DNA of 64,000 nt, taken from contig CAXXDV010000001.1 of the NCBI GenBank assembly GCA_963674745.2, forward strand, positions 2,272,001 to 2,336,000, given 5' to 3'. The translations under genes were made by a program, and so were the position numbers. Below the pieces are notes generated by a model, which saw only the letters and a list, made by a program, of their open reading frames with translations, ran no database searches and was not told the origin of the DNA. Shown here one piece after another: positions 1 through 17,182 of this stretch (its first letter is position 1; the number at the start of each line of letters is the position of its first letter). Source of the DNA: Desulfosudaceae bacterium. Its GTDB lineage: Bacteria > Desulfobacterota > Desulfobacteria > Desulfobacterales > Desulfosudaceae.

Positions 1-1026
1 CGGCCCCTGGGCATCCCCGCCTTGGAGGACAAACTTGTCCAGAAGGCGGTGGCCATGATCCTGACGGAGATATACGAACCGGATTTTCTGGATTGTTCGT
101 ACGGATACCGACCGGATAAAGGGGCCAAGGACGCGATCGGCGACCTGACGTTTCAGTTTCAGTTCGGCGTATTCGGCTATGTTGTGGAAGCGGATATCAA
201 AAGTTATTTTGATACCATTAACCATGATAAGCTGATGGCCATACTGGAGAAACGGATCAATGATCGGGCGTTCTTGCGGTTGATCAGAAAATGGCTGAAA
301 GCGGGCATCCTGCATCCGGACGGACAGGTCGAGCATCCGGTTACCGGGACGCCCCAGGGAGGACTCGTATCTCCCGTCCTGTCGAACATTTATCTGCATG
401 AGGTGCTGGATAAATGGTTCCAGGAGGTAGTCAAACCGAGGCTGGCAGGCCGTGCCATCATGTGCAGATATGCGGATGACTGGGTATGCGCCTTTCAATA
501 TCGGGAAGATGCGGACCGGTTCTATGATGTTCTTTCGAAACGCCTCGGCTGCTATGGTCTTGAGGTGGAGCCGAGCAAGACAAAGGTCATCCGGTTCAGC
601 CGATTCCAACCCGGCCGGGAGCGTGACAGGACGTTCACGTTTCTGGGGTTCGAATTTTACTGGTCAAAAGACCGCAAAGGTGTTGCCCGGGCACAGCGTC
701 GCACGGCTCCGGCCAAGCAACGTGAAGCCTTGGCGCGTATGAGAGATTGGTTGAAGAAGTCCCGGCATCTGCCGAAAAGACAAATCTTTGATGGGCTGAA
801 ACGTAAGCTGACCGGCCATTACAATTATTTTTATGTACGGGGGAATGCCCGTGCGGTATGGTCGTTTTACAGAGATGTGATCAGCTCGGCATTTAAATGG
901 CTGAATCGCAGAAGCCAGCGTAAAAGCTATAATTGGGAACGATTTAAGCAGGTCTTAGAATACGTAAAAATACCGAAACCGAAGCTGACGGAAAAGAAAC
1001 GTTTTCGCACGTGCGCGTTGAGCTAA
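1..1026 (+). CDS. ltrA: group II intron reverse transcriptase/maturase (5'-partial, no En domain)
   Basis: Open from base 1 (RPLGIPALEDK); GTPQGG and RYADD motifs and domain X (GHYNYF); ends without an HNH domain. Confidence 0.95.
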   Translation, partial: RPLGIPALEDKLVQKAVAMILTEIYEPDFLDCSYGYRPDKGAKDAIGDLTFQFQFGVFGYVVEADIKSYFDTINHDKLMAILEKRINDRAFLRLIRKWLKAGILHPDGQVEHPVTGTPQGGLVSPVLSNIYLHEVLDKWFQEVVKPRLAGRAIMCRYADDWVCAFQYREDADRFYDVLSKRLGCYGLEVEPSKTKVIRFSRFQPGRERDRTFTFLGFEFYWSKDRKGVARAQRRTAPAKQREALARMRDWLKKSRHLPKRQIFDGLKRKLTGHYNYFYVRGNARAVWSFYRDVISSAFKWLNRRSQRKSYNWERFKQVLEYVKIPKPKLTEKKRFRTCALS

Positions 1027-1126
1027 GCCGACACGGAAGCGAGTATAACCGAGGAACCGGATGCGGGAAAACCGCACGTCCGGGACTGTGTGGGGGGTGC
1101 CGGGTAACCGGCATTCCTACCACGAC
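1..1126 (+). mobile_element. 3' part of a group II intron (RT ORF, domains V and VI); 5' end outside window
   Basis: The RT ORF is followed by DV GAACCGGATGCGGGAAAACCGCACGTCCGGGAC (~1054-1086), a DVI hairpin with bulged A at 1119, and a terminal AC at 1125-1126. Confidence 0.93.
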
Positions 1127-1141
1127 TACGCAAAGGATATT

Positions 1142-1588
1142 ATGGACGAGAAAGAATTTTGGAATATCTTGGGAATGCTCAACTGGGATAAAACGGGTGA
1201 TGATGAAGCAGTCGTTGAGCCAGTTGTAAGCTATCTATCCAACCAATCGGACGAAGATATATTCCAATTTGAAGAGTTGCTCGCTCAAAAGCTATATGCG
1301 CTTGATACAAAAGCACATGCTAAAGAAATTGGTGAGGACGCATACATAAATGATGATCAATATTTTTCAGTTGATTGTTTTTTATATGCACGGTGTGTAG
1401 TCGTCGCAAACGGTAAGGAATTGTTCGAAGATGCTCTAAACAATCCATCAGAATTTCCTAAAGATATGGAGTTCGAAGCTATATTGTACGTTGCTCAAGA
1501 TGCTTATGAACGAAAAAATGGGAAAAAATGGAATTATGTATCCCCCACCAGTTATGAAACATTTAAAAATGTTGGTGGTTGGGAATAA
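1142..1588 (+). CDS. DUF4240-like protein (cassette 1)
   Basis: MDEKEFWNIL...FLYARCVVVANG resembles DUF4240; ATG follows AAGGA. Confidence 0.75.
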   Translation: MDEKEFWNILGMLNWDKTGDDEAVVEPVVSYLSNQSDEDIFQFEELLAQKLYALDTKAHAKEIGEDAYINDDQYFSVDCFLYARCVVVANGKELFEDALNNPSEFPKDMEFEAILYVAQDAYERKNGKKWNYVSPTSYETFKNVGGWE

Positions 1589-1590
1589 GC

Positions 1591-1714
1591 GTATAACAAC
1601 GCCACTCACACTGACTCGCAGGGGCGGGCTGTTTTTGTATTTGCGTAGTTTGGTGTTAAACTCACTTTAGCGAAGTCCGCAACCCCTGCTCGCCGGTGGT
1701 GGCGGACGTTATGC
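1591..1714 (+). repeat. attC site (family A, 124 bp)
   Basis: GTATAAC ... GCAGGGG/CCCCTGC arms ... GTTATGC. Confidence 0.88.
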
Positions 1715-1724
1715 GTCATAAGAA

Positions 1725-2315
1725 ATGATCATAATCAATAAAACCACTTTAAGTTTAATTCTCTGCCTGCTCTTATTATTGATTGGCTTTGGTTGCCTAC
1801 CCAAAGCATCGTATCATATGGAAGGTTATGAAGTTAAACCTGACAGATCAGAACATGGAACAGTTGAATTATATTGCAGAATTGTCTGTACACATTCCGG
1901 ATCATCAAGTTTAGTTGCAGGACACAGTGTATATGGAGCGCCTTATAAGTTAGAAGTTGAAGCGAGGACTTACGATAATAGATGGGAAGATTTGACAATC
2001 CGAAAAATTAATATTGCGCTTAAAGACAAAACTATCAAAATATTGGAGGGGTCTTTGAGCGACCAAGTTTTCCAATTTAATCGAAGCCCTTCAAGGCATG
2101 ATCCGCACGAAAATGAACACAAAGAAATTGTATATGAAACGGAAGCCCAATTTCCAATTGAGTTGACGTGGAATAAAGATAAAACTGCAGAAATCACGGT
2201 TCTGTTTAGCCTGACCAGTAAAGGTGAAACATTAAATGGCGTTCATCACTGCAAAGTAGATGCATATGAAATAAATCGTGAATCATCAATGTGGGATGCT
2301 ATGATGGGAATATAA
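1725..2315 (+). CDS. putative lipoprotein (cassette 2)
   Basis: Hydrophobic signal ending FGC; ORF fills the cassette. Confidence 0.7.
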   Translation: MIIINKTTLSLILCLLLLLIGFGCLPKASYHMEGYEVKPDRSEHGTVELYCRIVCTHSGSSSLVAGHSVYGAPYKLEVEARTYDNRWEDLTIRKINIALKDKTIKILEGSLSDQVFQFNRSPSRHDPHENEHKEIVYETEAQFPIELTWNKDKTAEITVLFSLTSKGETLNGVHHCKVDAYEINRESSMWDAMMGI

Positions 2316-2329
2316 CCCAATAGTAAAAC

Positions 2330-2455
2330 GCATAACAAGCCAGCCCAGCAGGATCGCCAGGGCAGGCTTTGTTGGGTAACCGGGGGAAGTGAAAATCTTT
2401 AAACTATAAGTCAGTCGGTGGAAGCCCTGGCGCCCTCTGGCTGAAGACGTTATAA
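2330..2455 (+). repeat. attC site (family B, 126 bp)
   Basis: GCATAAC ... GCCAGGGC/GCCCTGGC ... GTTATAA. Confidence 0.9.
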
Positions 2456-2460
2456 ACATT

Positions 2461-2961
2461 ATGCAAAATGTCTTTGTAATAACTGTAGTTGCTTTTTTTC
2501 TCGATGTAATTCTTTCTGCCACTTGGAATTCAACATATTTCCTGTTTGGAGTGCTTGCTTATAAAAAATCATATCGTATTAAAGGCAAGACCCTTGATGA
2601 TCTACCTAACAATATAAGAAAGGATGGTGATCATATCACTTGGGCAAGGTATAAGATTAAGCAAGTAGATAACAGGACATTTCTTTTAAGAAAAAATTTA
2701 TGGTATTTCGGTTTCAGCTTTTCAATGCCAATCATTCGATGGAGAATCAAAGTTCATGACAATGGACAATATTTTAGCTTAACGGCTTTGTATCAATTCT
2801 ACCCAATAGTCCTTCTCTTAGGAATAGGAACAATGTCAGTTCCAGCATTTATCACCATTGTATCCATATTTGTGGCCTTCTTCATATTGAGAACCAAGCT
2901 TGGAGTTGAACCTTTTCATAATGCAGAAGTTGAAAAAATTTGTGGTTTTATAAGAAATTAA
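2461..2961 (+). CDS. hypothetical membrane protein (cassette 3)
   Basis: ORF fills the cassette; hydrophobic segments. Confidence 0.7.
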   Translation: MQNVFVITVVAFFLDVILSATWNSTYFLFGVLAYKKSYRIKGKTLDDLPNNIRKDGDHITWARYKIKQVDNRTFLLRKNLWYFGFSFSMPIIRWRIKVHDNGQYFSLTALYQFYPIVLLLGIGTMSVPAFITIVSIFVAFFILRTKLGVEPFHNAEVEKICGFIRN

Positions 2962-2969
2962 AAAATAGT

Positions 2970-3091
2970 TTATAACAATTCAGCCCAGTAGGATCGCCAG
3001 GGCAGGCTTTGTTGGGCAACTGAGGGAAGTGAGCAGTAATCATCTATAATTAAGTCGGTGGGAACCCTGGCTCCCTCTGGCTGAAGACGTT
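2970..3091 (+). repeat. attC site (family B), R' interrupted by a MITE
   Basis: TTATAAC at 2970, family-B body, GTT at 3089-3091; the core resumes as GTTATGT at 3308. Confidence 0.88.
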
Positions 3092-3307
3092 GAGGCTGTA
3101 GAAAAAGTAAAATTTGAGTAAAACATAGGGTTTTGCCGCCAATTTTTGAAAACCTGAAAGTTATATAAGATTTTGTATGATCTCTGTGAAGCCATCTAAA
3201 ATAGATGGTTTGCAAGGATTTTATGTTTTAGTATAAAATATATTCTACGAAGGTGTTTTTCTGAAAAAAGATAAAATTTATCGAAAATAGACTTTTCCTA
3301 CAGACTC
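3092..3307. mobile_element. 216-bp MITE with 17-bp terminal inverted repeats
   Basis: GAGGCTGTAGAAAAAGT ... ACTTTTCCTACAGACTC (2 mismatches), flanked by GTT on both sides. Confidence 0.82.
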
Positions 3308-3344
3308 GTTATGTGCCGGATTAAAATGTGTTGAGACCTTCTAA

Positions 3345-3524
3345 ATGATATTTCGTGTATTAAAATACATTGCTTCTGAAATGCTTGAGTGGATTATATG
3401 CATAGCTCTTATTGTCACTCTAATGCTAGCTTTCCGTTATTCATATTTTTGGATTTTATTTTCTGTTTTGCTGGTAGGAGTTGTATATTACATTTTGCGA
3501 AAAAAACCCGACGTCAAAATATAG
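3345..3524 (+). CDS. 59-aa small membrane protein (cassette 4; not in ORF track)
   Basis: Manual translation: MIFRVLKYIASEMLEWIICIALIVTLMLAFRYSYFWILFSVLLVGVVYYILRKKPDVKI. Confidence 0.55.
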   Translation: MIFRVLKYIASEMLEWIICIALIVTLMLAFRYSYFWILFSVLLVGVVYYILRKKPDVKI

Positions 3525-3602
3525 ATATAGGGAATAAAAATAATCAGAACATAAGAAAGTTTGAAAAATAAAAAATTATAATTTACCAAAATAAAAACAA
3601 GC

Positions 3603-3726
3603 ACATAACAACACCATGCACTTGACTCGCAGGGGCGGGCTGTTTTTCAAACGTCGCGGTTCGGTGTTAACGTGGCTTTGCAATAGTCACTTTTCCCCTG
3701 CTCCCAAGTGACGGTGGACGTTATCT
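3603..3726 (+). repeat. attC site (family A, 124 bp)
   Basis: ACATAAC ... GTTATCT; similar to 1591 and 12717. Confidence 0.9.
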
Positions 3727-3744
3727 TTTAGAAGCATCGAAAAT

Positions 3745-4389
3745 ATGAAGATAAAATTTGTCGGTATAGTTTTAATTGTAATTGGGTTCACAATCCCATT
3801 TGTCTTAAAGGAAATTGTACCGACCTTCATGTATGCCGCGATATTATCGCAAATTTGTTTTTGGTTCGGCCTCTATACAATCCTTACCCCTATTCATCCT
3901 AATAGCATTTACACACCATATCTTCGGTGGGCGCGATATGGTGTTTTATTGAATTTTGGGCTGAGTTTTTTTGCAATAGCATTTGGTTATATGTTTTTAT
4001 ACTTTGGTCTTGATAAAATATTTGGTGTCTTTTTAATACGTTTGCTCTTTTTCTTAACAAACCCCATTCAATCCACTTTTGATTTTTTCGCTCCCAATCC
4101 TATGGTGCTACAGCCTGACGAATCTTTCATTGGAACAATAAGCTTTATTAGGGCGTTGCTAATTGAGTTCTTCAATATATTATTCTTTTGTTGCGTGGGT
4201 GTTTTAGCCAAAATAATTAAAGAAAAGATAACAAGGCCGCGCAATGGATCGCCAGGGCACCCGGCTTTTGAACATTCGGGGGTAAACGAATATAAACCAT
4301 CTTTAAGGCAAGTCAGTGGAAGCCCTGGCTCCCATTGGCGGCCGCCGTTCGGCAAGCCTATAAATATTGTACAAGTGTCAAAGGTATAA
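3745..4389 (+). CDS. multi-TM membrane protein (cassette 5), reads through its attC
   Basis: Several TM segments; no stop before R'' at 4226. Confidence 0.7.
   Translation: MKIKFVGIVLIVIGFTIPFVLKEIVPTFMYAAILSQICFWFGLYTILTPIHPNSIYTPYLRWARYGVLLNFGLSFFAIAFGYMFLYFGLDKIFGVFLIRLLFFLTNPIQSTFDFFAPNPMVLQPDESFIGTISFIRALLIEFFNILFFCCVGVLAKIIKEKITRPRNGSPGHPAFEHSGVNEYKPSLRQVSGSPGSHWRPPFGKPINIVQVSKV
4226..4353 (+). repeat. attC site (family B, 128 bp)
   Basis: AGATAAC ... GTTCGGC. Confidence 0.9.
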
Positions 4390-4413
4390 TTAATTTTAAT
4401 CAATAATTCCACT

Positions 4414-5007
4414 ATGAAAGTGAAACGATATTGTATAGTATTATTTAGATTTGCACTCCTTAATTTATTTGGATTAGTCTTAATCTTTTATGTGCCACTT
4501 GAGCTTTGGTACTTATCGTGGCCAAAAGTAAAAGCGGAGATTATTAAATCTGTGCATGAGTATGATTGCTACCCGCCGAACTCACCTAAATGTACTCCAA
4601 AAGCAACAATAGTATACAAATATGATATTATTGGGAAAAGTTACACATGTAATAATTATTCTCTCCATGGAGTATATAAGCCTTCGTCAATAATCCATTC
4701 GTTCAAAACACAACAGATTCTAGTAGAGCGATTATTAAATAATTACCCGGTCAATAGCAGCATTACAGTCTATTACAACAAAAACAAACCCCATCAGGCC
4801 GCAATCAACCCAAATATGTCAATGGGTGAGTGGCTGTATATTATAGTATGGACATTTATTGGTGGAATAGTTGTTCGCTCATGGACTATGAAAAATAAAG
4901 AACATCTTTCTCTGACTTATGATTTTAAACTGTTTATTACCTGTGTTATTTTACTTTTATTAGGTTCGATTATCGGAAATGCAATCATTGTGCTCCTAAC
5001 GAAATAA
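4414..5007 (+). CDS. DUF3592-like membrane protein (cassette 6)
   Basis: TM, then SWPKVKAEI...ITVYYNKNKPHQA, then TM. Confidence 0.65.
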   Translation: MKVKRYCIVLFRFALLNLFGLVLIFYVPLELWYLSWPKVKAEIIKSVHEYDCYPPNSPKCTPKATIVYKYDIIGKSYTCNNYSLHGVYKPSSIIHSFKTQQILVERLLNNYPVNSSITVYYNKNKPHQAAINPNMSMGEWLYIIVWTFIGGIVVRSWTMKNKEHLSLTYDFKLFITCVILLLLGSIIGNAIIVLLTK

Positions 5008-5013
5008 AAAGAT

Positions 5014-5137
5014 GCCGAACCACACGTTGGTAACGACCGCAAGGGGCGGTCGATTTTGGCACTTACCAAATAATTTAAAAAACGTGTCTTCGGCGGCGGA
5101 CCGTTCCCCTTGCGGCCCCACACCGTGGACGTTCGGC
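5014..5137 (+). repeat. attC site (A-like variant, 124 bp)
   Basis: GCCGAAC ... CCGCAAGGGG/CCCCTTGCGG ... GTTCGGC. Confidence 0.85.
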
Positions 5138-5148
5138 CGACACATAAT

Positions 5149-5532
5149 ATGCAACCATTTACATCACAAGGTAGAAAATTACGATTGGCGCTAATGCCAA
5201 TTTCATATTTTATTGCCTTCGCGACAATATATATTATGTTGATCTGCCTTGCTAAAATTGAAAACTCAAGTATCAAAGGTCTTCTTCAAACAGATAATTT
5301 ATGGCCGCTCGCGATTATCCTCCCGTGTTTTATCTTTGGGAAAATTCTGGGGCTTATGGCTATAAATGGCATTGCATATTTAATTCCCCATTTGCGTAAT
5401 GTTTTTGAGAATGAAGTAGCTGAAACAGGTCGTAATAATTTTTTCCAGGCAATGAAGGGACTTAGTATCGCTCTTGCCATATCGTTAATCATTACTGTGT
5501 TAGGAGCTATTTTATTCCTCCAATATAAATAA
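5149..5532 (+). CDS. hypothetical membrane protein (cassette 7)
   Basis: First ATG after R'; 3 TM segments. Confidence 0.7.
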   Translation: MQPFTSQGRKLRLALMPISYFIAFATIYIMLICLAKIENSSIKGLLQTDNLWPLAIILPCFIFGKILGLMAINGIAYLIPHLRNVFENEVAETGRNNFFQAMKGLSIALAISLIITVLGAILFLQYK

Positions 5533-5537
5533 TTATG

Positions 5538-5666
5538 GCCGAACAAGGCAGCTCAAGAGGATCGCCAGGGCATTCGGCTTTTGAACATTCGGGGGGAAAT
5601 AAACATTAACCGTCTTTAAGGCAAGTCTGTGGGAGCCCTGGCGCCCTTTGGCTGCCGCCGTTATGT
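5538..5666 (+). repeat. attC site (family B, 129 bp)
   Basis: GCCGAAC ... GTTATGT. Confidence 0.9.
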
Positions 5667-5676
5667 TTCAAAAGGC

Positions 5677-6189
5677 ATGAGAAAAAATAATTTCCAGGCT
5701 CTATTATTCTTTGTTGGCATGATTTTCATGTTTTTGCTTTGTTCATGCCAGTTTTCTGAAAACAGGCATCTCAAACGAGAGGTAAAAAGAAATGAATTGA
5801 TTGGTACATGGATAGCAACGCCATTTGCGATAAAATGTTTACAATGGTCAGGTTTTAAGAATCACCTTGCTACAAACGATCATCAGTTGGTTTTAAATGA
5901 GAATGGATCATGCAGATACAAATCATTTCAAAATTTTTTTATTATCTCAGGTTCAACTCCCAAATATCTTGATGTCGATGATTGTAAGTGGGAACTTATC
6001 AGCAAAACCGAACACCAACAACAGTATATAACTATCACCCTATCATCGTCACCTGAGGGAAGCGGAGGCCCTTATTTTTATTTCGACGAAAAAGACAAAA
6101 AATTGATCCTGTGGCAATATTGTAGTGATCCAGATCAGTGGAAATATATGGAATTTTTTAAGGTAGATTCAAAAAACAAAAAAACATAA
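5677..6189 (+). CDS. putative lipoprotein (cassette 8)
   Basis: MRKNN...LLCSC lipobox-like signal. Confidence 0.7.
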   Translation: MRKNNFQALLFFVGMIFMFLLCSCQFSENRHLKREVKRNELIGTWIATPFAIKCLQWSGFKNHLATNDHQLVLNENGSCRYKSFQNFFIISGSTPKYLDVDDCKWELISKTEHQQQYITITLSSSPEGSGGPYFYFDEKDKKLILWQYCSDPDQWKYMEFFKVDSKNKKT

Positions 6190-6311
6190 CCATGCCGCCC
6201 AAAGGATCGCCAGGGCAGTCGGATTTTGAACAGTCGGGGGGAGACGAACATTAACCATCTTTAAGGCAAGTCAGTGGAAGCCCTGGCTCCCATTGGCGGC
6301 CGCCGTTAAGT
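6184..6311 (+). repeat. attC site (family B, 128 bp)
   Basis: ACATAAC ... GTTAAGT. Confidence 0.9.
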
Positions 6312-6324
6312 GCATATAAAACAT

Positions 6325-6936
6325 ATGTCAAAATGGTATATTTTGCCCGGAATGGGCGCAACTTCAGCGATGTATGATTCGCTTAAGCCCGAAATTGATT
6401 TTGAGGTCAACTTTTTAGATTGGCCTGAATATAAGGGTGAAACAACCTACATGGAGGTTGCAGCACGGATTATAACTGAAAACGATATATCAGACGGAGA
6501 TATTGTTGGAGGATCATCCCTGGGGGGAATGGTCGCTCTCGAAATTGCACAGATATTGCGGCCAAGAACAACTGTGCTTCTTGGGAGTGCTATAAATAAG
6601 CGAGAAGTTCAGAGTGTCCTTTCTATCTTGTCCCCTTTGGCAGCTGTAACCCCAATATCATTGATTCAATTTTTGGTGGGGAAACACAAAAGTTTAATAG
6701 CGAAAATGTTTTCCAATTGCGATTCTGGATTTATTCGGGCCATGTGCTTGCATTTACGTTCATGGCCAGGCTATTCCGGCCCGAATGAGAACATAATTCG
6801 GCTTCATGGCCGGAAAGACCATGTAATTCCGTGTCCAGCAACTGGCGCAGAGATTATTGATGGTGCTGGCCATTTATTGGCAATGACACATCCTAAAGAA
6901 ACTGGGCAGTTTTTAAAAAATGTACACAGCACTTAA
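6325..6936 (+). CDS. alpha/beta hydrolase (cassette 9)
   Basis: LPGMGA, GSSLGG nucleophile elbow, HGRKD and GAGH motifs. Confidence 0.85.
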   Translation: MSKWYILPGMGATSAMYDSLKPEIDFEVNFLDWPEYKGETTYMEVAARIITENDISDGDIVGGSSLGGMVALEIAQILRPRTTVLLGSAINKREVQSVLSILSPLAAVTPISLIQFLVGKHKSLIAKMFSNCDSGFIRAMCLHLRSWPGYSGPNENIIRLHGRKDHVIPCPATGAEIIDGAGHLLAMTHPKETGQFLKNVHST

Positions 6937-7059
6937 CCATTCAGCGCAATAGGATCGCCAGGGCACCCGGGTTTTGAACAGCCATGCTGAGTTGAAATTT
7001 TAACCATCTTTAAGTCAGTCGGAGGAAGCCCTGGCGCCCTTTGGCTGAAGACGTTCGGC
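6931..7059 (+). repeat. attC site (family B, 129 bp)
   Basis: ACTTAAC ... GTTCGGC. Confidence 0.9.
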
Positions 7060-7079
7060 TTCTGATTGGAAATATCAAA

Positions 7080-7562
7080 ATGAAAAAGATATTTTTTTTA
7101 ATCATTCTCATTTTAGTGCTTAGTGATGCAAATGCGACTGAGATCGTTGACGTAAATACAAGTATCCTTGGAAAGGACGTAAACACCCCTCTTGAATTAT
7201 TCTCGGTGGGAGAAAATAATAAAAGTACCCTTCTTTATCCCACCAACATTCAATTAGATATTGAGAACAATTTATGCAAAGCTGTATCCATGCTTTTCCC
7301 AGACAATAAAATCAAACTTGATGAAATGAGAAAGATCATAAATACAAAGTATCCCGATACCGAATATATTGTAGGAGATAAATTTTGGGCTTGGCGGGTT
7401 GAAAATGGACATTTTACAATAACAATGTTCCCCCAAGAAGATTGTATCGAGGATTATAATTACATTAGAGTTGTTTACTTGATGTGGGTTAATGAAGATA
7501 TTGATGTTATAGTAGAAAGAGGCGAAAAAATTCTAAATTATCTACAGAAAAATATAGAGTAA
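7080..7562 (+). CDS. putative secreted protein (cassette 10)
   Basis: MKKIFFLIILILVLSDANA signal peptide. Confidence 0.7.
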   Translation: MKKIFFLIILILVLSDANATEIVDVNTSILGKDVNTPLELFSVGENNKSTLLYPTNIQLDIENNLCKAVSMLFPDNKIKLDEMRKIINTKYPDTEYIVGDKFWAWRVENGHFTITMFPQEDCIEDYNYIRVVYLMWVNEDIDVIVERGEKILNYLQKNIE

Positions 7563-7690
7563 GCCGAACCAAGCAGCGCAAGAGGATCGCCAGGGCATTC
7601 GGCTTTTGAACACTCAGGGGAAACTGAACATAAACCATCTATAAGACAGTCAGAGGATGCCCTGGCGCCCTTTGGCTGCAGACGTTCTGT
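7563..7690 (+). repeat. attC site (family B, 128 bp)
   Basis: GCCGAAC ... GTTCTGT. Confidence 0.9.
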
Positions 7691-7718
7691 GCAAAAAAAT
7701 TATCGGGGATAATTAACT

Positions 7719-8312
7719 GTGAATGAGAGTATTTGTTGGTATGAGATAAAACGAAAGACTATATTCTCGTATTTAATCCCGATACTTTTGACTGTATTCT
7801 GGCTAGGTTTTATAACGTTACTAAGCCAGTGCTCGGAAAAAGAAAAAAAATATGACAAGGAATTATGGCAACCCTGGCTTGAGATTAAGAATGAAAAAAT
7901 ACAATTTATCGAATTACACCCTATTCTCACAACTGGATACTACACCATCTCAAATGTGGCTAGGATTGAAGATAAACAATTGATTTCAAAAATTAAAGAG
8001 AATTTAAACAGAAGACTTATGACAAATGAAGATAAGATCGGTTACCATTGGTTCTCAAGTAAACGTCTTCGAATAACAGCTTATACAGAAAAGAAAGAAT
8101 TTTCATTTATCTTATTTTTTCATGGGGAATTTCCAAGTGTTCAATATCAAATGTTGGTGCCCACAAACGAAAAGCATAGCGCATTCAGGCCGCAGCAGTG
8201 CCCCGGTTTCTACGCTAGCGGTGAAGGATGGAGAAGTGCTAAATTGTATAATGTAATAAATGAATTTATCAGTCACTCAAAAAAGGTTCATTGGAACAAA
8301 TATGCTATTTAA
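7719..8312 (+). CDS. membrane-anchored hypothetical protein (cassette 11)
   Basis: N-terminal TM; ORF fills the cassette. Confidence 0.65.
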   Translation: MNESICWYEIKRKTIFSYLIPILLTVFWLGFITLLSQCSEKEKKYDKELWQPWLEIKNEKIQFIELHPILTTGYYTISNVARIEDKQLISKIKENLNRRLMTNEDKIGYHWFSSKRLRITAYTEKKEFSFILFFHGEFPSVQYQMLVPTNEKHSAFRPQQCPGFYASGEGWRSAKLYNVINEFISHSKKVHWNKYAI

Positions 8313-8373
8313 CTTAAACAATGTTCAATGAAACGCAAATAGATAGTGAAAATAATTCATTGAAGATAAAAGC

Positions 8374-8502
8374 ACAGAACAAGGCATCGCAAGAGGATCG
8401 CCAGGGCATTCGGGTTTTTGAACGGCTTGGGGAAATTGAACATTAACTTTCTTTAAGACAGTCAGAGGAAGCCTTGGCGCCCTTTGGCTGCCGCCGTTAT
8501 GT
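8374..8502 (+). repeat. attC site (family B, 129 bp)
   Basis: ACAGAAC ... GTTATGT. Confidence 0.9.
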
Positions 8503-8508
8503 CGAAAT

Positions 8509-9093
8509 ATGAAAAAGCTCATATCAATATTTCCAGCCATTTTAATATTAATTATTATTGGAATGTCGGCTTACAATGTCAAAACAGACCCAGATTATAA
8601 AACCTACGATGTTTTGAATGAAGCGATTGAAAAAGGTGACATTTCGACTGTAAAAACGATTATTGGCAAAGACAAAAAATTTCTTTCGTTTAGTAGGCCG
8701 GCACTTAACGAAGCTGTTTTTAATTGCCAACTTGAGATAGCTAAATACTTGATAAAAGCGGGCGCAAAGGTAAATCATAAATATGGGCGTCATAATTCGA
8801 CTGCTCTTCATGTAGCAGCATATAATTGTGATAATGCCGAAATCATAAATTTATTGATCAGGAACGGTGCTATAGTTGATATAAAAAATGATCTATTTGA
8901 AACACCGCTTATGCTCGCATCCGAAAATGGAAACATCAAAGCGATGAAGGTGCTTATAGATAATGGTGCAAATGTTAATGCAAGGAGTAGAGCATACGGA
9001 ATCCCTGTAGATTATGCGAAAAGGAATAGCTCCTTAAACGCAATTGATTTTTTGAAACAAAAAGGGGCAAAAACAATCAATAAAAATTTTTAA
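8509..9093 (+). CDS. ankyrin-repeat protein with N-terminal signal/TM (cassette 12)
   Basis: TALHVAA, TPLMLAS and LIxxGA repeats. Confidence 0.88.
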   Translation: MKKLISIFPAILILIIIGMSAYNVKTDPDYKTYDVLNEAIEKGDISTVKTIIGKDKKFLSFSRPALNEAVFNCQLEIAKYLIKAGAKVNHKYGRHNSTALHVAAYNCDNAEIINLLIRNGAIVDIKNDLFETPLMLASENGNIKAMKVLIDNGANVNARSRAYGIPVDYAKRNSSLNAIDFLKQKGAKTINKNF

Positions 9094-9094
9094 G

Positions 9095-9155
9095 ACATAA
9101 CGAACAAGGATAGATCGTGCGAGGTAACGAGCCACGATCTTATCCGGGGTTGAAC
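9095..9155. repeat. 61-bp attC-like hairpin formed at the end of the IS91-like element
   Basis: ACATAAC-GAACAA-GGATAGATCGTG...CACGATCTTATCC-GGG-GTTGAAC, with one extrahelical base. Confidence 0.65.
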
Positions 9156-9349
9156 AAGCCCGCTGAACTTTCACTATAAGAAAATATTTAATTTGGGATA
9201 GAGGGCAAAAGGCGTGAACCTGGAAAGTGCTTTTTTTGCAGGACGCAGGGATCCCTTAACCTGAAGGCAGGTTTTAAAAAGACAATTTTGTTCATGGGTG
9301 TGATTGCCTCCTGTTTTTTGTTGTGCCGGGTCATAACCGGGTCAGCGTT

Positions 9350-10405
9350 TTATCCCGGCTTCCAGGCCGCGTAACGGAACCCTTTGATGACCATCGGGAT
9401 GTGGCAACGGGGGCACTTTACAGCAGGTCTCGGGCGTTGGGTTTTTATTCCAAGCCGGACATGCAGGATCAATTGCACCAGTTGCAGCGTCTTTTTGGCG
9501 TTGCCATGAAGAAACCCGTAATCGCGCACCCTGCGGAAGCCCTTGGGCAGGACATGCTGCAGAATGAGCTGGAGAAAATCTTCTCCGTCAAGCGTACGAT
9601 AACGGGTATGGCCGGTGCCGCTTTCAGTGTACCTGAAGGTGACCCGGCCATTTTCATTGGCCACAATATTCTTTTCACTGATTACACCCCGGTATAAGTA
9701 CCGGGACAGGTACTTTATGACCGGGAGCCCGTTACCGACCTTTTCACAATCCACGACCCATTTTGCAGGTGTATTTTTAGGCACATAAAGGCCGGCTTTT
9801 CTTAAAGCGGCCAGAAAACGGGCACGAAAGACCGTGGCCAGGTTAAACTCATTAAACAGATATTTTCCTTTTTTCTTTTTCCATTGTCGCCGGCGCTTAT
9901 CAATCCCGCCGCCGGGCACCACCACATGGATATGAGGATGATAATCCAGACTTCGGGTGTTCGTATGCAGAACCATGGTCAAACCGATTTCTGCGCCCAT
10001 TTGCTTCGGGTTTAAGCCAAAATCCTTGAGTGTTTCGGACACGCAGGAAAAGAAGATTGAATATACATCCCGCTGATTGTTCCAGGCCAGCGGACGGAGT
10101 TCAAACGGCAGCGTAAACGTCGCCATAAAGTAAAGCACCGGAAGCAGTTTGTCTTGCTGCCGGTCGATCCACTGAGTGGCCTCATGGTTCTGGCATTTGG
10201 GGCAGCTCCGATGTCCGCAGGACATCGGGTGCCATTTCCCATGATGGCAGGCAGGACACTGAACGTAAAATTCTCCGGAAGCAGGTGTGCGACATCTGCG
10301 TATGGCACGCAAGGATTTAAGATGCCCCGGCAAGGCTTTTTGGCCGTGCTTTTCCATAAACCTGTCAGCGTACTGATCAATAATTGATGCCAGTTCCATA
10401 ATCAT
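9350..10405 (-). CDS. IS91-family (Y2/HUH) transposase
   Basis: N-terminal Cys zinc-binding region (CPAC...[11 protein letters not shown]), HPHIH HUH motif, YLSRY motif and RVRDYG. Confidence 0.92.
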
Positions 10406-11306
10406 ACCTTTCTAAAATCAACATGGATTGTATTTATCAGCTCATTTAAGACAGTCAGGCTGTCCTGCTCCGTTATATCGCTCAGATGCGTATAACGTGC
10501 TGTTGTGGAGGGACTGGCATGGCCAAGCAGGGCCTGGATGTGACGGAGGCTTAAGCCGCGTTCAAGCAGGTGGGTGGCAAAACTGTGACGCAGGGAGTGA
10601 ATGGATACTTTTTTTTAATGCCGCATTCGGCGACGACCACTTTCATGGCTCTCTGACAGCCGCCTTTATCCATAAAGTTGGTGGCCGCCCGGATGGTCTC
10701 TAAAGACCCCTTGCAATTGGGAAATAACAAATTAGGATGACGATGCTTACGCCAAAGCTCCCGCAGGCCCGTCAAAGTCAGGTCCGGCAATGGCAGCATT
10801 CGGTCCTTATGACCTTTACCCCGGCGGATATGGACCTTTTTGCGCTCAGCATCAATGTCCCCGATCTGAAGGGACAACGTCTCTTCCAGACGCAATCCCA
10901 TGGAATAGGTTGTCAGCAGAAATACCCGGTAACGCAATTTCTTGGTTTTGCCGATGATCCGTTCAACCTCGGAAACGGTAAGAATGTCCGGTATGGTTTT
11001 GACTTTCGGCGGTTTGACGATCTTGATCCATTCCCAGTCCTTTCCGAGCACATACCGCCAGAAGAACTGCAAGCCGTTACGGTCAACCCTGACCGTGCTC
11101 CAGGAATGGCTATCCACCAGCTGAGAGAAATAACCTTCCAATTGTTCCGGACGCAAATGGTCGGGACAACAATCAAAATGGTTACGAATGCGGCGGACTG
11201 AACGGGCATAGAGATCAATGGTCCTCGGACTCATACCCTGAAGCTTGAGCAACTCCAGGTGCCTCTCATAAAGCCGGTTGAAACGTTTTACTTCCGAATC
11301 GTTCAT
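10402..11306 (-). CDS. tyrosine recombinase completed by a -1 frameshift at 10608-10616
   Basis: Frame 0 has a SAM-like N-terminus, GLRLEE and GKGHKDR. The -1 frame after A8G gives [15 protein letters not shown]...[13 protein letters not shown]...RKV*, whose stop overlaps the tnp ATG (ATGA). Confidence 0.88.
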
Positions 11307-11360
11307 GGTATACTCCTTTCATTGGGGGTGCCCGTAATTGAGCACGTATTGGAGTATACC
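11307..11360 (-). promoter_or_regulatory. 5'-UTR hairpin sequestering the recombinase RBS
   Basis: Perfect 10-bp inverted repeat GGTATACTCC/GGAGTATACC; one arm contains the GGAG SD and abuts the ATG. Confidence 0.55.
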
Positions 11361-11393
11361 TTGTTTTTTATTAATCCGCCGCGTAGCGGCTTC

Positions 11394-11521
11394 GTTCAAC
11401 CATTCAGCGCAAGAGGATCGCCAGGGCACTCGGGCTTTGAACAGCCGTACTGAATTGAACATTAACCGACTTTAAGTCAGTCAGAGAAGGCCCTGGCGCC
11501 CTTTGGCTGAAGACGTTATGA
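11394..11521 (+). repeat. attC site (family B); R'' now supplied by the element end
   Basis: GTTCAAC + family-B body + GTTATGA. Confidence 0.88.
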
Positions 11522-11534
11522 AATATAGCCTGAT

Positions 11535-12707
11535 ATGAAAGCCATCAAACCATTATCAATCATGCTTTTTTGTCTTATTGTTGTTTCCTGCGCCCCCAAT
11601 TCTTCTAATATAAGGGCAACAGATAATCAGATGGGCATGGATAACCATTCTGTTAATTATAGTTCGGGTGATATGTTAAAAATTGAAAATTGTACCAAAG
11701 AAGTCAATACAGAATATGACCTAATAGAGCAGGCGTTTGATTGTTATGAAGAGTTCGATCAAAAGACAATCAATGACATTACTTCCAACTACTCCATCTC
11801 TATTTTTATCAATACGTTACAAGACGATAATTACGAGTATCGTGCAGGAGCTGCAAGGATTCTTGGATTATTGAAATATTCAAAATCAGTTCCAGATTTA
11901 TTATACATGGCAATAAACGACCCAAATCCATATTGTAAGGTAAGCGCAACTTTAGCCCTCTATCAAATTGATGAGGAGCCGGCAAAAAACGATGCTTTTT
12001 CTAATCTGATAAAGGACTTTACAAATCCAGAAACAGAATCGGTTTACAGAGGCATCATCGCAGCCCTCATGGGGGATATAGGTGATCAAAATGCAACCCC
12101 TTATTTACTCACAGCTTTAAAAGATCCCAAAACAGATCCATTTGTACTCGATTTTGTAATCTTCGCTTTGGGAAAAATTAAAGGTGAAAATATACCTGCT
12201 GCACTTAATGAATTCATTTTAAGGCATGATATTGAACCATATATTCGAAAAGATGCCATAATGGCGTTAGGCTCAATTGGTGATGATGATTCAATCTCGT
12301 TCTTATCTGATATCTTGAATTCAAAAGATTACAATTATTCTATTAGGGCAGATGCGGCTTCAGCATTAGGTTACGAATCAAACCATAGCCAAAAGGCCAT
12401 TTCAGCCTTAATTAATGCCACAAAGGATGAAAATAAAGGTGTCCGTTTTTTTGCTGTTTGTGCCTTGGGAAAAATACCTGATGAGCGTGCAACGAAGGGT
12501 TTAATTAATGCTCTGAACGATGATTGTGACCGTGTTCGAGTTACGGCAGTCAATTTTTTAGGATTAACCGGTGATGAATCATCTATACCAGCGTTAACAA
12601 GGTTATCAAAAGATGATGCGATAATTTATGGTCAGCCAATTAAAGAACACGTTCAAAAAGCGATTGAGCAAATTAAGGAAAAAGCTATAAAGGATAAATC
12701 AAAATAA
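11535..12707 (+). CDS. HEAT-repeat lipoprotein (cassette 13)
   Basis: VVSC lipobox; repeated VR..A..ALG motifs. Confidence 0.85.
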   Translation: MKAIKPLSIMLFCLIVVSCAPNSSNIRATDNQMGMDNHSVNYSSGDMLKIENCTKEVNTEYDLIEQAFDCYEEFDQKTINDITSNYSISIFINTLQDDNYEYRAGAARILGLLKYSKSVPDLLYMAINDPNPYCKVSATLALYQIDEEPAKNDAFSNLIKDFTNPETESVYRGIIAALMGDIGDQNATPYLLTALKDPKTDPFVLDFVIFALGKIKGENIPAALNEFILRHDIEPYIRKDAIMALGSIGDDDSISFLSDILNSKDYNYSIRADAASALGYESNHSQKAISALINATKDENKGVRFFAVCALGKIPDERATKGLINALNDDCDRVRVTAVNFLGLTGDESSIPALTRLSKDDAIIYGQPIKEHVQKAIEQIKEKAIKDKSK

Positions 12708-12716
12708 CAGAAAATT

Positions 12717-12839
12717 TCATAACCACACCATGCACTTGACTCGCAGGGGCGTTCTGCTTTTTCAGTATCGCAGTTCGGTGTTAACGTGGCTTCGTAAACG
12801 TCACAGTTCCCTGCTCCCAAGTGACGGTGGACGTTGTGC
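12717..12839 (+). repeat. attC site (family A, 123 bp)
   Basis: TCATAAC ... GTTGTGC. Confidence 0.9.
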
Positions 12840-12859
12840 ATCTATAACATTATATAAAT

Positions 12860-14131: not shown

Positions 14132-14142
14132 CGGCGTTAGGC
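14084..14142 (+). repeat. short 59-bp attC site
   Basis: GCACAAC ... TCAGCCG/CGGCTGA ... GTTAGGC. Confidence 0.85.
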
Positions 14143-14152
14143 GCATGAATAT

Positions 14153-14593: not shown

Positions 14594-14603
14594 TGACGAC
14601 GGC

Positions 14604-14732
14604 GCCTAACAAGGCATCGCAAGAGGATCGCCAGGGCATTCGGCTTTTGAACATTCGGCGGAAACTGAACATTAACCGTCTTTAAGACAAGTCATTGGAA
14701 GCCCTGGCGCCCTTTGGCTGCCGCCGTTAGGC
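14604..14732 (+). repeat. attC site (family B, 129 bp)
   Basis: GCCTAAC ... GTTAGGC. Confidence 0.9.
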
Positions 14733-14743
14733 AAAAATATATT

Positions 14744-15541: not shown

Positions 15542-15550
15542 GACAAAATT

Positions 15551-17061: not shown

Positions 17062-17069
17062 TTAATAAT

Positions 17070-17182
17070 GCATAAGAAGCTCAAGTGGACAGCCAGGGCA
17101 CTCGGGTTTTGAAAAATCGAGGGGTTTGAACAACCCAAATCATTAACTAAGTCAGTGGAAGCTCTGGCTGCCGCCGTTCTGT
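17070..17182 (+). repeat. degenerate attC site (family B, 113 bp)
   Basis: R'' reads GCATAAG (not AAC); right arm lacks about 10 bp; R' GTTCTGT. Confidence 0.7.

What the first reader, a model, noticed from the sequence alone, without database searches (positions are those of the whole stretch)
1054..1135. Non-IIC group II intron inserted sense-strand in an attC R' core
Seen: the intron ends ...CACGAC at 1126 and the 3' exon starts TACGC. Cassette 1's inverse core is GCGTATAAC, so by the complementarity rule seen in the other cassettes its core was GTTATACGC and the insertion point is GTTA|TACGC. DV is full length with an AAC triad, and the bulged A is 8 nt from the end (IIB-like). Known: the described IIC-attC introns insert on the bottom strand, antisense to cassettes, at the R'' side. 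Inference: this is a different intron class with independent attC targeting, spliced out of the array transcript.
Basis: partly seen in the sequence, partly recalled or inferred. Interest (0 to 1): 0.72.

Follow-up and report, generated by a model that had tools for sequence, protein, structure and literature searches.

The report
Sense-strand attC-homing group II intron
A complete mobile group II intron of a non-C, class E-like lineage sits, pointing the same way as the genes, inside the conserved core of an integron recombination site, which it and many relatives in other phyla find by RNA-DNA base pairing.

Summary
Window 1-1126 is the 3' part of a 2003-nt group II intron that starts 877 nt upstream of the window. 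Its 5' exon is an attC ending GTTA and its 3' exon starts TACGC, so the intron splits the R' core as GTTA|TACGC, on the cassette sense strand.

A second, 100% identical copy sits at the same position of another attC (GTTA|TCGAG), in a complete integron of the same genome.

The intron is neither class C nor class D, by both RNA and protein tests. Its RNA matches Rfam RF02005. A documented IIC-attC intron gives RF02001 and RF01998, and two listed class D introns give RF01999. It is most likely class E, the class published for two broken fragments in a Halorhodospira CALIN (Sonbol and Siam 2021).

Targeting is by base pairing:
- EBS1 UAACGU pairs with ACGTTA.
- EBS2 GAAGC pairs with GCTTC.
- EBS3 A pairs with +1 T.

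EBS1 and EBS3 covary with the exons across relatives.

In other genomes, 29 of 50 5' junctions lie at GTTA|, and 13 loci pass formal attC tests.

Splicing was not shown, because no RNA data were found. The 5' end is GCGCG, not the predicted GUGCG.

This is a new variant of a known kind. Earlier notes of this scan report similar sense-strand attC introns on other DNA.

The parts
1..1126 (+). 3' 1126 nt of a 2003-nt group II intron. The full element is G000:C1:2271124-2273126, and its 5' end lies 877 nt upstream of window base 1.
   Evidence: The second copy at C3:2339031-2341033 (-) is identical over all 2003 nt.
1..1026 (+). C-terminal 341 codons of the intron-encoded RT/maturase (458 aa in all; no endonuclease domain; YADD present).
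   Evidence: One search gives the ORF L002 1150-2526. One search finds Pfam RVT_1 only (E 1.4e-33). One search gives PDB group II RT hits.
1054..1086 (+). Domain V: 33 nt, a 5-nt GAAAA loop, and an AAC triad in which the middle A lies opposite G.
   Evidence: Of 61 3' ends in other genomes, 18 are AAC-type and 41 AGC-type, and the opposing base switches with the triad.
1088..1126 (+). Domain VI with bulged A1119 (8th base from the end) and the 3' splice site after C1126.
1127..1131 (+). 3' exon start TACGC: the distal part of the split attC R' core (GTTA|TACGC). T1127 is IBS3.
   Evidence: One search shows the complement of R'' at 1589-1597. One search shows the EBS3 column complementary to +1 in 91% of 32 relatives.
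1142..1588 (+). ORF of the first cassette downstream (148 aa, DUF4240). Its start lies 16 nt after the splice site, behind AAAGGA.
1589..1714 (+). attC of that cassette: R'' GCGTATAAC at 1589-1597 and R' GTTATGC at 1708-1714.
   Evidence: folds it with z -2.2 (top strand) and -2.45 (bottom strand). Searches also find it.
1589..17173 (+). The rest of the cassette array. It holds 17 of the 25 attC-type repeats of the cluster C1:2266570-2289173, which has no integron integrase beside it (a CALIN).

Best explanation
This is a full-length, recently mobile bacterial group II intron without an endonuclease domain. It belongs to a non-C, non-D lineage, most likely class E (IIE).

It entered the top (cassette-sense) strand of an attC by retrohoming. 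The intron RNA reads 12 bases at the 3' end of the attC:
- EBS2 GAAGC pairs with GCTTC at -13 to -9, in the L' box.
- EBS1 UAACGU pairs with ACGTTA at -6 to -1, the end of L' plus the first four bases of the R' core.
- EBS3 A291 pairs with T at +1.

The insertion lies 3 nt downstream of the integrase crossover point G|TT. The intron therefore becomes the 5' end of the downstream cassette.

Because EBS1 UAACG matches the conserved core GTTA, a large part of this lineage in several phyla lands at cassette boundaries in the sense orientation.

Shown here: the anatomy, the two identical copies, the pairings and their covariation, the class exclusions, and attC context in relatives.

Inferred: splicing from array transcripts, priming of cDNA synthesis at replication forks, and any effect on cassette recombination.
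For: Copies and boundaries:
- Two copies are identical over 2003 nt, in different attCs with different flanking cassettes.
- Rejoining the exons gives GTTA+TACGC and GTTA+TCGA. These match the complement of each downstream cassette's own R'' (GCGTATAAC; TTTCGATAAC).

Genome context:
- The 12-mer CTTCAGACGTTA occurs 11 times against 0.7 expected. Ten occurrences lie in attCs, of which 2 are occupied and 8 empty, and 5 of the 8 empty sites have +1 T.
- The genome has 249 attC-type repeats in arrays and 3 integron integrases over the TIGR02249 cut-off.
- Copy 2 sits at the 13th of 21 attCs of an array that runs away from a divergent intI. Copy 1 sits at the 8th of 25 attCs in a CALIN.

Class:
- RF02005 matches at 111 bits here, and also in 14 of 14 relatives tested.
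- The IIC-attC intron Kl.pn.I3 gives RF02001 and RF01998. Class D introns E.c.I9 and D152 give RF01999.
- BLASTP of the IEP gives 135 bits to Kl.pn.I3 and 158-160 bits to the class D references, against 263-296 bits to RF02005-type plasmid introns.
- In the tree the class D references form their own clade (support 100) outside the 68-row clade (support 99) that holds this IEP.
- DV has the 5-nt loop that PMC3753933 names as a IIE/IIF trait.
- The H.ha.F IEP fragment printed in the supplement of PMC7923331 looks about half identical by eye to the C-terminal half of this IEP. That paper assigns it to class E.

Pairing:
- EBS1 covaries with the exon: UAACAU/ATGTTA, CAACAA/TTGTTG, CGUACU/AGTACG, CGCAUU/AATGCG, AAUAAA/TTTATT, UAAAUG/CATTTA.
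- One DI column is complementary to +1 in 91% of 32 relatives. The next best column reaches 49%.
- The variable loop carrying EBS2 pairs 5 of 5 with the exon in several relatives.

Lineage:
- 29 of 50 5' junctions in other genomes are at GTTA|.
- The structural attC test is positive at 9 of 34 intron sites, against 29 of 480 control GTTA sites.
- The exact R'' complement of the 3' exon is found downstream at 9 of 50 junctions, against 12 of 2440 with swapped exons.
- In 7 of the 8 such cassettes outside this genome, an ORF on the intron's strand fills the cassette, starting at base 18 to 116 of the cassette (within 27 bases in 5 of them).
- In L038, two copies sit in consecutive attCs about 5 kb from an intI.
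Against: - No RNA data were found, so neither splicing nor transcription is shown.
- RF00029 scores below its gathering threshold for this copy (33.9 against 40).
- The 5' GCGCG and the AAC triad depart from consensus and could lower activity. Both are shared by relatives in other genomes.
- Only 14 loci (13 outside this genome) pass a formal attC test. Several GTTA| sites (L005-L007, L076, L040) show no recognisable attC. Members with other EBS1 sequences sit elsewhere, so the lineage is not exclusively attC-bound.
- R''/R' symmetry means the hairpin test and the complement rule cannot give strand by themselves. Sense orientation rests on ORF direction and on the position of intI.
- The class E label was not tested against a bona fide class E sequence.
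- EBS2 pairing is weak or absent in some relatives (L003, L010, L076).
- Only 2 of 10 perfect sites in the genome are occupied.
Confidence: 0.78

Rival explanations
1. It is a class C (IIC) intron of the rare sense-oriented kind, recognising the attC top-strand hairpin plus a short IBS1. One such intron was reported in an Enterobacter cloacae integron.
For: - The site is formally analogous to IIC sites: a hairpin, then a short motif containing GTT.
- The IEP has no endonuclease domain.
- PDB IIC RTs are among the best solved-structure hits, but only at 129-148 bits, about the same as LtrA at 140 bits.
- PMC7923331 cites a top-strand IIC case.
Against: - The RNA matches RF02005, not the RF02001/RF01998 pair given by the documented IIC-attC intron.
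- The IEP aligns to Kl.pn.I3 only over the RT domain (32%, 135 bits).
- There is a 6-bp EBS1 plus a 5-bp EBS2, whereas IIC introns lack EBS2 (PMC4075523).
- The non-ORF RNA is about 626 nt, from the coordinates.
Confidence: 0.03
2. This is ordinary retrohoming into a repeated 12-nt sequence that merely happens to lie in this genome's attC family. There is no lineage-level specialisation on attC, and GTTA sites in relatives are coincidental.
For: - Recognition is plain EBS/IBS pairing, as in any IIB-type intron.
- Relatives with altered EBS1 sit in non-attC sites.
- About half of the GTTA| sites fail the attC tests.
Against: - EBS1 UAACG is kept across subclades of a 58-row clade spanning many phyla.
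- 29 of 50 junctions are at GTTA|.
- attC evidence is enriched about four-fold (structure) and more than thirty-fold (complement rule) over controls.
- Cassette ORFs start at base 18 to 116 after the junction (within 27 bases in 5 of 7 loci).
Confidence: 0.12
3. The two copies arose by DNA-level duplication or integrase-mediated cassette shuffling of an intron-bearing cassette, not by intron mobility.
For: The intron lies downstream of the G|TT crossover. It would therefore travel with the downstream cassette if that cassette were excised and re-integrated. This follows from the established integron mechanism and is inference.
Against: - The cassettes downstream of the two copies are unrelated (DUF4240 against another ORF) and diverge from +2.
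- The upstream attC halves and upstream cassettes also differ.
- Identity ends exactly at the intron ends.
Confidence: 0.04
4. It is an inactive relic: the non-consensus 5' GCGCG and AAC triad mark a dead ribozyme that no longer splices, so it blocks the downstream cassette.
For: - GCGCG replaces GUGYG, and AAC replaces AGC with two non-Watson-Crick pairs at the DV base.
- RF00029 scores under its gathering score.
- IIE introns spliced only by hydrolysis in vitro (PMC3753933).
Against: - Two copies have 0 differences in 2003 nt, and the 458-aa ORF with YADD is intact.
- GCGCG is shared with L003, L009 and L039. The AAC triad with opposing G is shared by 17 of 61 3' ends from other genomes and covaries cleanly with AGC opposite A.
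Confidence: 0.1

Closest known systems
Group IIC-attC introns (S.ma.I2 lineage; examined here: Kl.pn.I3 on pIMP-1495, L083; PMC3001079, PMC5027574, PMC7923331 background)
   Same: - Both are endonuclease-less group II introns that insert at the conserved GTT-containing core at the foot of the attC hairpin.
- Both also occur in CALINs.
   Different: - The known introns are class C. They lie on the bottom strand, antisense to the cassettes, at the R'' side (TTGT|T). They recognise a hairpin plus a 3-4 bp IBS1 and have no EBS2.
- This intron is RF02005-type RNA. It lies on the top strand, in the sense orientation, at R' (GTTA|T), with 6+5+1 bp of EBS1/2/3 pairing.
H.ha.F1 and H.ha.F2, class E fragments in the Halorhodospira halochloris CALIN (Sonbol and Siam 2021, PMC7923331; main text sections and supplement text seen)
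   Same: - It appears to be the same IEP family. This is a by-eye comparison of the printed fragment, including the C-terminal extension.
- Both have the same orientation as the cassettes and sit in a CALIN.
- Attribute shared: an attC-like structure was noted upstream.
   Different: - The published fragments are 5'-truncated and have broken IEPs. No 5' junction, EBS/IBS pairing or exact target was defined for them.
- Here there are two intact identical copies with exact junctions, and the pattern is seen across the family.
UHB.I2 (IIB1/CL1, Tanatar-5 soda lake contig; PMC7923331)
   Same: It is a non-IIC intron in the sense orientation, next to an attC.
   Different: - Its IEP is of a different family: the printed CL1-type sequence is unlike this one.
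- It is described as lying just after the attC, with UUGCG..GU ends, and no conserved 5' exon was found among its homologues.
Unusual sense-oriented IIC intron in an Enterobacter cloacae class 1 integron (Rodriguez-Martinez et al. 2012; known to me only as cited in PMC7923331)
   Same: [quoted passage not shown]
   Different: It is class C. The paper itself was not read.
RmInt1 and other endonuclease-less homing introns (class D; PMC4075523, PMC3001079)
   Same: - Both have an En-less IEP.
- The target layout is alike: IBS1 next to the splice site, one unpaired gap, a 5-nt IBS2 and a single-base IBS3.
   Different: - RmInt1 homes into an insertion sequence.
- Class D references give RF01999 and fall outside this clade.
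Vi.vu.I1, listed with host 'CI cassette' in Table S1 of Toro and Martinez-Abarca 2013 (PMC3552965 supplement; GQ292873)
   Same: It is an En-less intron with a 439-aa IEP in a Vibrio vulnificus chromosomal integron cassette array.
   Different: - It is listed there as class D, and its sequence was not examined here.
- The paper on that array lists only a 'reverse transcriptase' ORF and does not mention an intron (PMC2761259).

Membership tests
Bacterial ORF-containing group II intron | DI-DIV ribozyme structure | tested here: met
   RF02005 scores 111.2 bits (gathering 49) at L002 660-921.
Bacterial ORF-containing group II intron | DV and DVI with a bulged A near the 3' end | tested here: met
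   RF00029 matches its full length at 33.9 bits, E 4.3e-05, which is under the curated 40 bits. Relatives reach the threshold: L078 41.3, L023 44.2, L072 44.5. A1119 is the 8th base from the end.
Bacterial ORF-containing group II intron | RT/maturase ORF in DIV with YADD | tested here: met
   The ORF has 458 aa and matches RVT_1 at 1.4e-33. PDB group II RT hits reach 3.9e-42.
Bacterial ORF-containing group II intron | EBS-IBS pairing with the flanking exons | tested here: met
   EBS1 pairs over 6 bp, EBS2 over 5 bp and EBS3 over 1 bp. EBS1 and EBS3 covary across relatives.
Bacterial ORF-containing group II intron | Splicing and retromobility | not testable with these tools
   Mobility is inferred from two identical copies in different attCs. 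No RNA run was listed.
Class C (IIC), including IIC-attC | IIC-type RNA | tested here: not met
   The documented IIC-attC intron Kl.pn.I3 gives RF02001 (134 bits) and RF01998 (65 bits). This intron gives RF02005 only.
Class C (IIC), including IIC-attC | IEP groups with class C | tested here: not met
   BLASTP to Kl.pn.I3 gives 32% over 290 aa of the RT domain only, 135 bits. RF02005-type IEPs give 263-296 bits. Only one class C reference was used.
Class C (IIC), including IIC-attC | No EBS2 and a 3-4 bp IBS1 behind a hairpin | tested here: not met
   The intron has a 6-bp EBS1 and a 5-bp EBS2. The definition is taken from PMC7923331 and PMC4075523.
Class C (IIC), including IIC-attC | Bottom-strand insertion at R'' (TTGT|T), antisense to the cassettes | tested here: not met
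   The intron is on the same strand as the cassette ORFs and points away from the divergent intI. It lies at R' GTTA|T.
Class D | RNA and IEP like the listed class D introns | tested here: not met
   E.c.I9 and D152 (Table S1 of PMC3552965) give RF01999. They score 158-160 bits to this IEP and form a separate clade (support 100) outside the 68-row clade.
Class E (IIE) | 5-nt DV loop instead of a tetraloop | tested here: met
   The loop is GAAAA here, and the 59 relatives parsed under the same 33-nt DV frame also give 5-nt loops. PMC3753933 states this trait for both IIE and IIF, so it does not separate E from F.
Class E (IIE) | IEP groups with curated class E IEPs (e.g. Ps.tu.I1) | not tested
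   No curated class E sequence could be brought into the tools. The indirect evidence is by-eye similarity to the H.ha.F fragment, which PMC7923331 places in class E.
Class E (IIE) | alpha' at the tip of a DId3 stem-loop and an extra DId3 bulge | not tested
   The feature is named in PMC3753933. It was not mapped here.
attC site (the 5' exon plus the first bases of the 3' exon) | Inverse core ...AAC and core GTT... closing an imperfect hairpin | tested here: met
   The 5' exon runs from GCATAAC to GTTA, with L''/L' pairing. An unoccupied paralogue folds with z -3.6 (top strand) and -4.3 (bottom strand).
attC site (the 5' exon plus the first bases of the 3' exon) | Member of a cassette array in which each cassette's R'' complements the R' at its own start | tested here: met
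   There are 25 co-oriented repeats in the cluster. The rule holds at 1708/2329 and 2449/2969, and across the intron.
attC site (the 5' exon plus the first bases of the 3' exon) | Integron integrase beside the array | tested here: inconclusive
   Copy 2's array abuts a divergent intI (428.9 bits). Copy 1's array has none and is a CALIN.
attC site (the 5' exon plus the first bases of the 3' exon) | Recombined by IntI | not testable with these tools
   This needs an excision or integration assay.

The most novel reading that the evidence does not exclude
A whole, cross-phylum clade of class E-type group II introns may be a second, independently evolved guild of integron parasites. It would read the universal R' core (GTTA) of attC with a fixed EBS1 (UAACG) on the cassette sense strand. 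Each intron would enter just behind the integrase crossover point, so that it rides as the 5' end of the downstream cassette. It would be removed from array transcripts by splicing. It may also truncate the R box and so alter the excision of its neighbours. Part of the clade would do this with a catalytic AAC triad (A opposite G) in place of AGC.
Probability: 0.5. Interest if true: 0.72.

Novelty: new variant of a known kind. Interest (0 to 1): 0.62.

Why it matters
Textbook knowledge ties attC invasion to one class C lineage that inserts antisense. A 2015 review states that every lineage except class C uses homing sites (PMC4424553).

Here a different class homes into attC by ordinary, reprogrammable base pairing, on the sense strand. 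This has three consequences.
- Cassette expression would depend on splicing.
- The intron can hitch-hike on cassette mobility.
- The same conserved core has been targeted at least twice in evolution.

It also yields intact, apparently active IIE-type introns with a defined natural target. These could be used to study En-less retrohoming at structured, single-strand-prone DNA. They also allow a test of whether an AAC triad supports catalysis.

Tried and rejected
1. CUGAAG in the intron looked like a 6-bp EBS2 for exon CTTCAG. I rejected it because CCCUGAAG is conserved in most relatives whatever their exon. The covarying loop GAAGC is the better EBS2.
2. I first took the S. meliloti pSymA intron L084 for an RmInt1-like class D reference. 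The listed class D introns then fell elsewhere, so L084 is simply another RF02005-type intron.
3. The PDB sequence search did not separate classes: IIC, LtrA and the 6me0 RT scored 116-148 bits.
4. No RNA holder was listed. The contigs laid covered the exons only in X1/X2, which are probably the source sample. X3's 0.28 share turned out to be intron-like pieces, not an intron-less allele. No empty-site allele and no spliced form were seen.
5. The promoter scan gave 4 sites against 3.3 expected, so nothing can be said about an outward promoter.
6. My first crude attC finder found only one attC in the window. The chain-following script stopped at 3089 because of a non-exact complement. An nhmmer profile replaced both.
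7. An attC covariance model was not built. The alignment is specific to this genome's 120-nt attC type and would not transfer to other phyla.
8. GC skew places both copies co-oriented with replication. With n = 2, and with arrays of both orientations in the genome, this supports nothing on its own.
9. Accessions KX711880, KX711879 and KM977631 without the NZ_ prefix were not in the collection.
10. Literature: searches for attC + top strand, class D/E + integron, Vi.vu.I1 and GQ292873 found no description of this lineage's target. The only relevant paper was the fragment report PMC7923331.

Full report
**Observation**

The window opens inside an RT ORF that ends at 1026. Behind it lie:
- a 33-nt domain V (1054-1086, GAAC...GGAC);
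- a domain VI with a bulged A at 1119, eight bases from the end;
- the 3' end ...CACGAC at 1126;
- the 3' exon TACGC at 1127-1131.

Rfam's DV-DVI model RF00029 matches 1052-1126 over its whole length at 33.9 bits. That is below its gathering score of 40, with E 4.3e-05 for the 401 nt searched. At gathering thresholds the only Rfam hit in the whole window is a tRNA at 18164-18235.

The first cassette downstream has the inverse core GCGTATAAC at 1589-1597.

**Upstream of the window**

The window is G000:C1:2272001-2336000. Its first 1126 nt occur twice in the genome at 100% identity. Reading the DNA upstream shows a 2003-nt element:
- an attC ending ...GGCTTCAGACGTTA;
- then GCGCGCCAAGCG...;
- DI-DIV, matching RF02005 at 111.2 bits (gathering 49);
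- a 458-aa ORF with RVT_1 and YADD and no endonuclease domain;
- DV-DVI.

The second copy, on the minus strand of C3, is identical at all 2003 positions. It follows a similar but not identical attC and precedes a different cassette. There the junction is GTTA|TCGAG, and that cassette's own R'' is TTTCGATAAC.

Eight further attCs in the genome carry the same CTTCAGACGTTA and run straight on into cassette DNA, which fixes the 5' boundary. The predicted 5' GTGCG is in fact GCGCG. In 50 5' junctions from other genomes the aligned first five bases are GTGCG 29, TCGCG 8, GAGCG 5, GCGCG 3 and others 5.

**Genome context**

- A profile built from eight attCs (seven in the window, one just upstream) finds 249 attC-type repeats, nearly all in co-oriented arrays.
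- Three integron integrases pass the TIGR02249 cut-off.
- Copy 2 follows the 13th of 21 attCs of an array on the minus strand that starts next to a divergent intI at C3:2348261-2349205.
- Copy 1, the window's copy, follows the 8th of 25 attCs of a cluster with no integrase beside it, i.e. a CALIN.
- In both places the intron is on the strand of the cassette ORFs. In the window a DUF4240 ORF starts 16 nt after the splice site.
- By GC skew both copies are co-oriented with replication. With two copies this is only an anecdote.

**Class**

I took the documented IIC-attC intron Kl.pn.I3 from pIMP-1495 as a class C reference (PMC5027574, passages). It lies antisense to blaIMP-4 and gives RF02001 plus RF01998. 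This intron, 14 of 14 relatives tested and three plasmid introns all give RF02005.

BLASTP scores of this IEP:

| Compared with | Result |
|---|---|
| Kl.pn.I3 (class C) | 32% over the RT domain only, 135 bits |
| Class D references E.c.I9 and D152 | 158-160 bits |
| RF02005-type plasmid introns | 263-296 bits, full-length |

The two class D introns are listed in Table S1 of Toro and Martinez-Abarca 2013 (supplement read): E.c.I9 and D152 on pBpOF4-01. They give RF01999.

In a quick maximum-likelihood tree of 71 IEPs rooted on Kl.pn.I3, they form their own clade (SH-aLRT 100). That clade lies outside a 68-row clade (support 99) that holds this IEP. Before that tree I dropped:
- three long-branch rows (L065, L059, L082);
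- five loci whose longest ORF was not an IEP (L029, L037, L058, L067, L079);
- one row aligning over fewer than 300 aa;
- a few loci with no ORF of the required length.

The intron is therefore neither C nor D. The paper reports D and E as sister classes.

Three things point to class E:
- Nagy et al. 2013 name a 5-nt DV loop as a IIE/IIF trait (passages), and DV here has GAAAA.
- The supplement of Sonbol and Siam 2021 prints the IEP fragment of H.ha.F. By eye it is about half identical to the C-terminal half of this IEP, including the C-terminal extension.
- Those authors place it in class E, nearest Ps.tu.I1.

I could not bring a curated class E sequence into a tree. The label is therefore inferred.

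**How the target is read**

- The DId3 loop GUUGUAACGUAC holds UAACGU, complementary to exon positions -6 to -1 (ACGTTA).
- Across relatives this loop changes together with the exon: UAACAU/ATGTTA (L017), CAACAA/TTGTTG (L031), CGUACU/AGTACG (L039), CGCAUU/AATGCG (L048), AAUAAA/TTTATT (L051) and UAAAUG/CATTTA (L081).
- A variable loop upstream holds GAAGC, complementary to GCTTC at -13 to -9. The corresponding loop pairs 5 of 5 with the exon in L012, L018, L030/33, L038, L040, L045 and L048, but poorly in L003, L010 and L076.
- One DI column (intron position 291, A) is complementary to the first 3' exon base in 91% of 32 relatives. The next best column reaches 49%.

The layout resembles that described for RmInt1: IBS1 next to the splice site, a short unpaired gap, a 5-nt IBS2 and a one-base IBS3 (PMC4075523, passages).

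Of the eight empty perfect 12-mers in the genome, five also have T at +1.

**The lineage**

The IEP has thousands of relatives, mostly on roughly 2-kb metagenome contigs. There are 570 hits in species-representative genomes, of which the best 80 were kept.
- In other genomes, 29 of 50 5' junctions end GTTA and 27 end CGTTA. These are spread over the subclades of the 58-row clade.
- A structural attC criterion required AAC 40-140 nt upstream, a constrained fold of -15 kcal/mol or lower, and at least 5 of 7 R''/R' complementarity. It is met at 9 of 34 intron sites, against 29 of 480 other GTTA sites in the same loci. Several of those control sites are neighbouring attCs.
- The exact complement of the first five 3' exon bases plus TAAC is found downstream at 9 of 50 junctions, against 12 of 2440 when exons are swapped between loci.
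- Together, 14 loci pass one test or the other, 13 of them outside this genome. L078, L010 and L008 look like attCs by eye but miss my thresholds.
- The R''/R' pattern and the complement rule are symmetric between strands, so I checked ORF direction. In 7 of the 8 cassettes outside this genome that the rule defines, an ORF on the intron's strand fills the cassette, starting at base 18 to 116 of it (within 27 bases in 5).
- In L038 (a Terriglobia MAG) two copies follow consecutive attCs about 5 kb from an intI.
- Integrase matches at E <= 1e-40 occur in 6 of the 10 genomes checked. Most of these are incomplete MAGs.

**What is known**

- The 2015 review says attC targeting belongs to class C and that all other lineages use homing sites (PMC4424553, passages).
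- Sonbol and Siam 2021 (sections 5 and 7, passages and supplement text) describe UHB.I2, a CL1-type sense intron just after an attC. They also describe the two 5'-truncated class E fragments in a CALIN, with attC-like structures upstream. They speculate that structure guides targeting.
- They cite a sense-oriented IIC intron in E. cloacae. I did not read that paper.
- Table S1 of PMC3552965 lists Vi.vu.I1 in a 'CI cassette' as class D. The paper on that array lists only a reverse transcriptase ORF.
- My searches found no description of an EBS1-to-R'-core mechanism or of a lineage-wide pattern.
- Earlier notes of this scan report sense-strand non-IIC attC introns on other DNA, one of them called class-E-like. 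A look-up with this IEP found no look-alike among them.

**Not shown**

- Splicing and transcription are not shown: no RNA holder was listed, and the laid contigs gave no spliced or empty form.
- The priming pathway is unknown.
- Any effect on IntI recombination is unknown.

The insertion leaves only GTTA of the 7-nt R' next to L', and it lies 3 nt behind the G|TT crossover. That the intron rides with the downstream cassette and may hinder recombination follows from the standard integron model. It is inference.

Noticed in passing
window 1054-1086, and the DVs of L003-L082: The catalytic triad is AAC with the middle A opposite G. In 61 3' ends from other genomes, 41 have AGC (40 with GAUC and 1 with GAAC as the opposing strand, so the G lies opposite A) and 18 have AAC (17 with GG[A/U]C as the opposing strand, so the A lies opposite G). 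A purine-purine pair therefore swaps sides cleanly. All 59 parsed DVs are 33 nt with a 5-nt loop.
   Followed up: partly
window 10551-11306 (-): A 251-aa tyrosine-recombinase-like ORF matches TIGR02249 at 85 bits, below the cut-off. It recurs four times in the genome, each time in or beside a cassette array (C1:1739981, C1:2102784, C1:2282749, C3:2332314). Each copy has a short neighbouring fragment broken by a TAA. It may be a mobile element living in the arrays.
   Followed up: no
whole genome G000: The integron load is very large: 249 attC-type repeats, three complete integrons and several integrase-less clusters. One cluster holds 89 repeats (C1:1480176-1531325) and another 47 (C3:1821288-1857914).
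   Followed up: partly
L002 500-623; L001 395-524: The attC's own L'' arm reads GAAGC, the same five bases as the intron's EBS2. The intron RNA would therefore compete with the attC's own hairpin for GCTTC in L'.
   Followed up: no
L078 5254-5388 (+): A IIC-type DI-DIV hit (RF02001, 51.8 bits) lies about 1.3 kb downstream of the RF02005-type intron, on the same strand, in a gammaproteobacterial MAG. Two intron classes may share one array.
   Followed up: no
L005 1802-1893 and L044 1204-1278 (+): Strong extra DV-DVI hits (63 bits) lie about 110 nt (L005) and about 650 nt (L044) upstream of the family intron's 5' end. The 3' end of another intron therefore sits one cassette or one attC away.
   Followed up: no
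L053 1798-1856: In Desulfonema magnum a truncated 5' fragment of the same intron lies 177 nt upstream of the full copy. It too follows ...TTTAGCGTTA.
   Followed up: no
L002 823-2557, 1220-2532 and 1250-2534 (runs X4, X5): Marine-sediment metagenome contigs join the intron's 5' and 3' parts while skipping about 1.3-1.7 kb. One does so at a summed depth of 625. This suggests that ORF-less derivatives of this intron family are abundant there.
   Followed up: no
window 18164-18235 (-): A tRNA gene lies about 1 kb beyond the last attC-type repeat of the cluster, which ends at 17173.
   Followed up: no
L038; G006:C37:198789-199730: The intI next to the two intron-bearing attCs is on the same strand as the cassettes. 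This is not the usual divergent arrangement.
   Followed up: no
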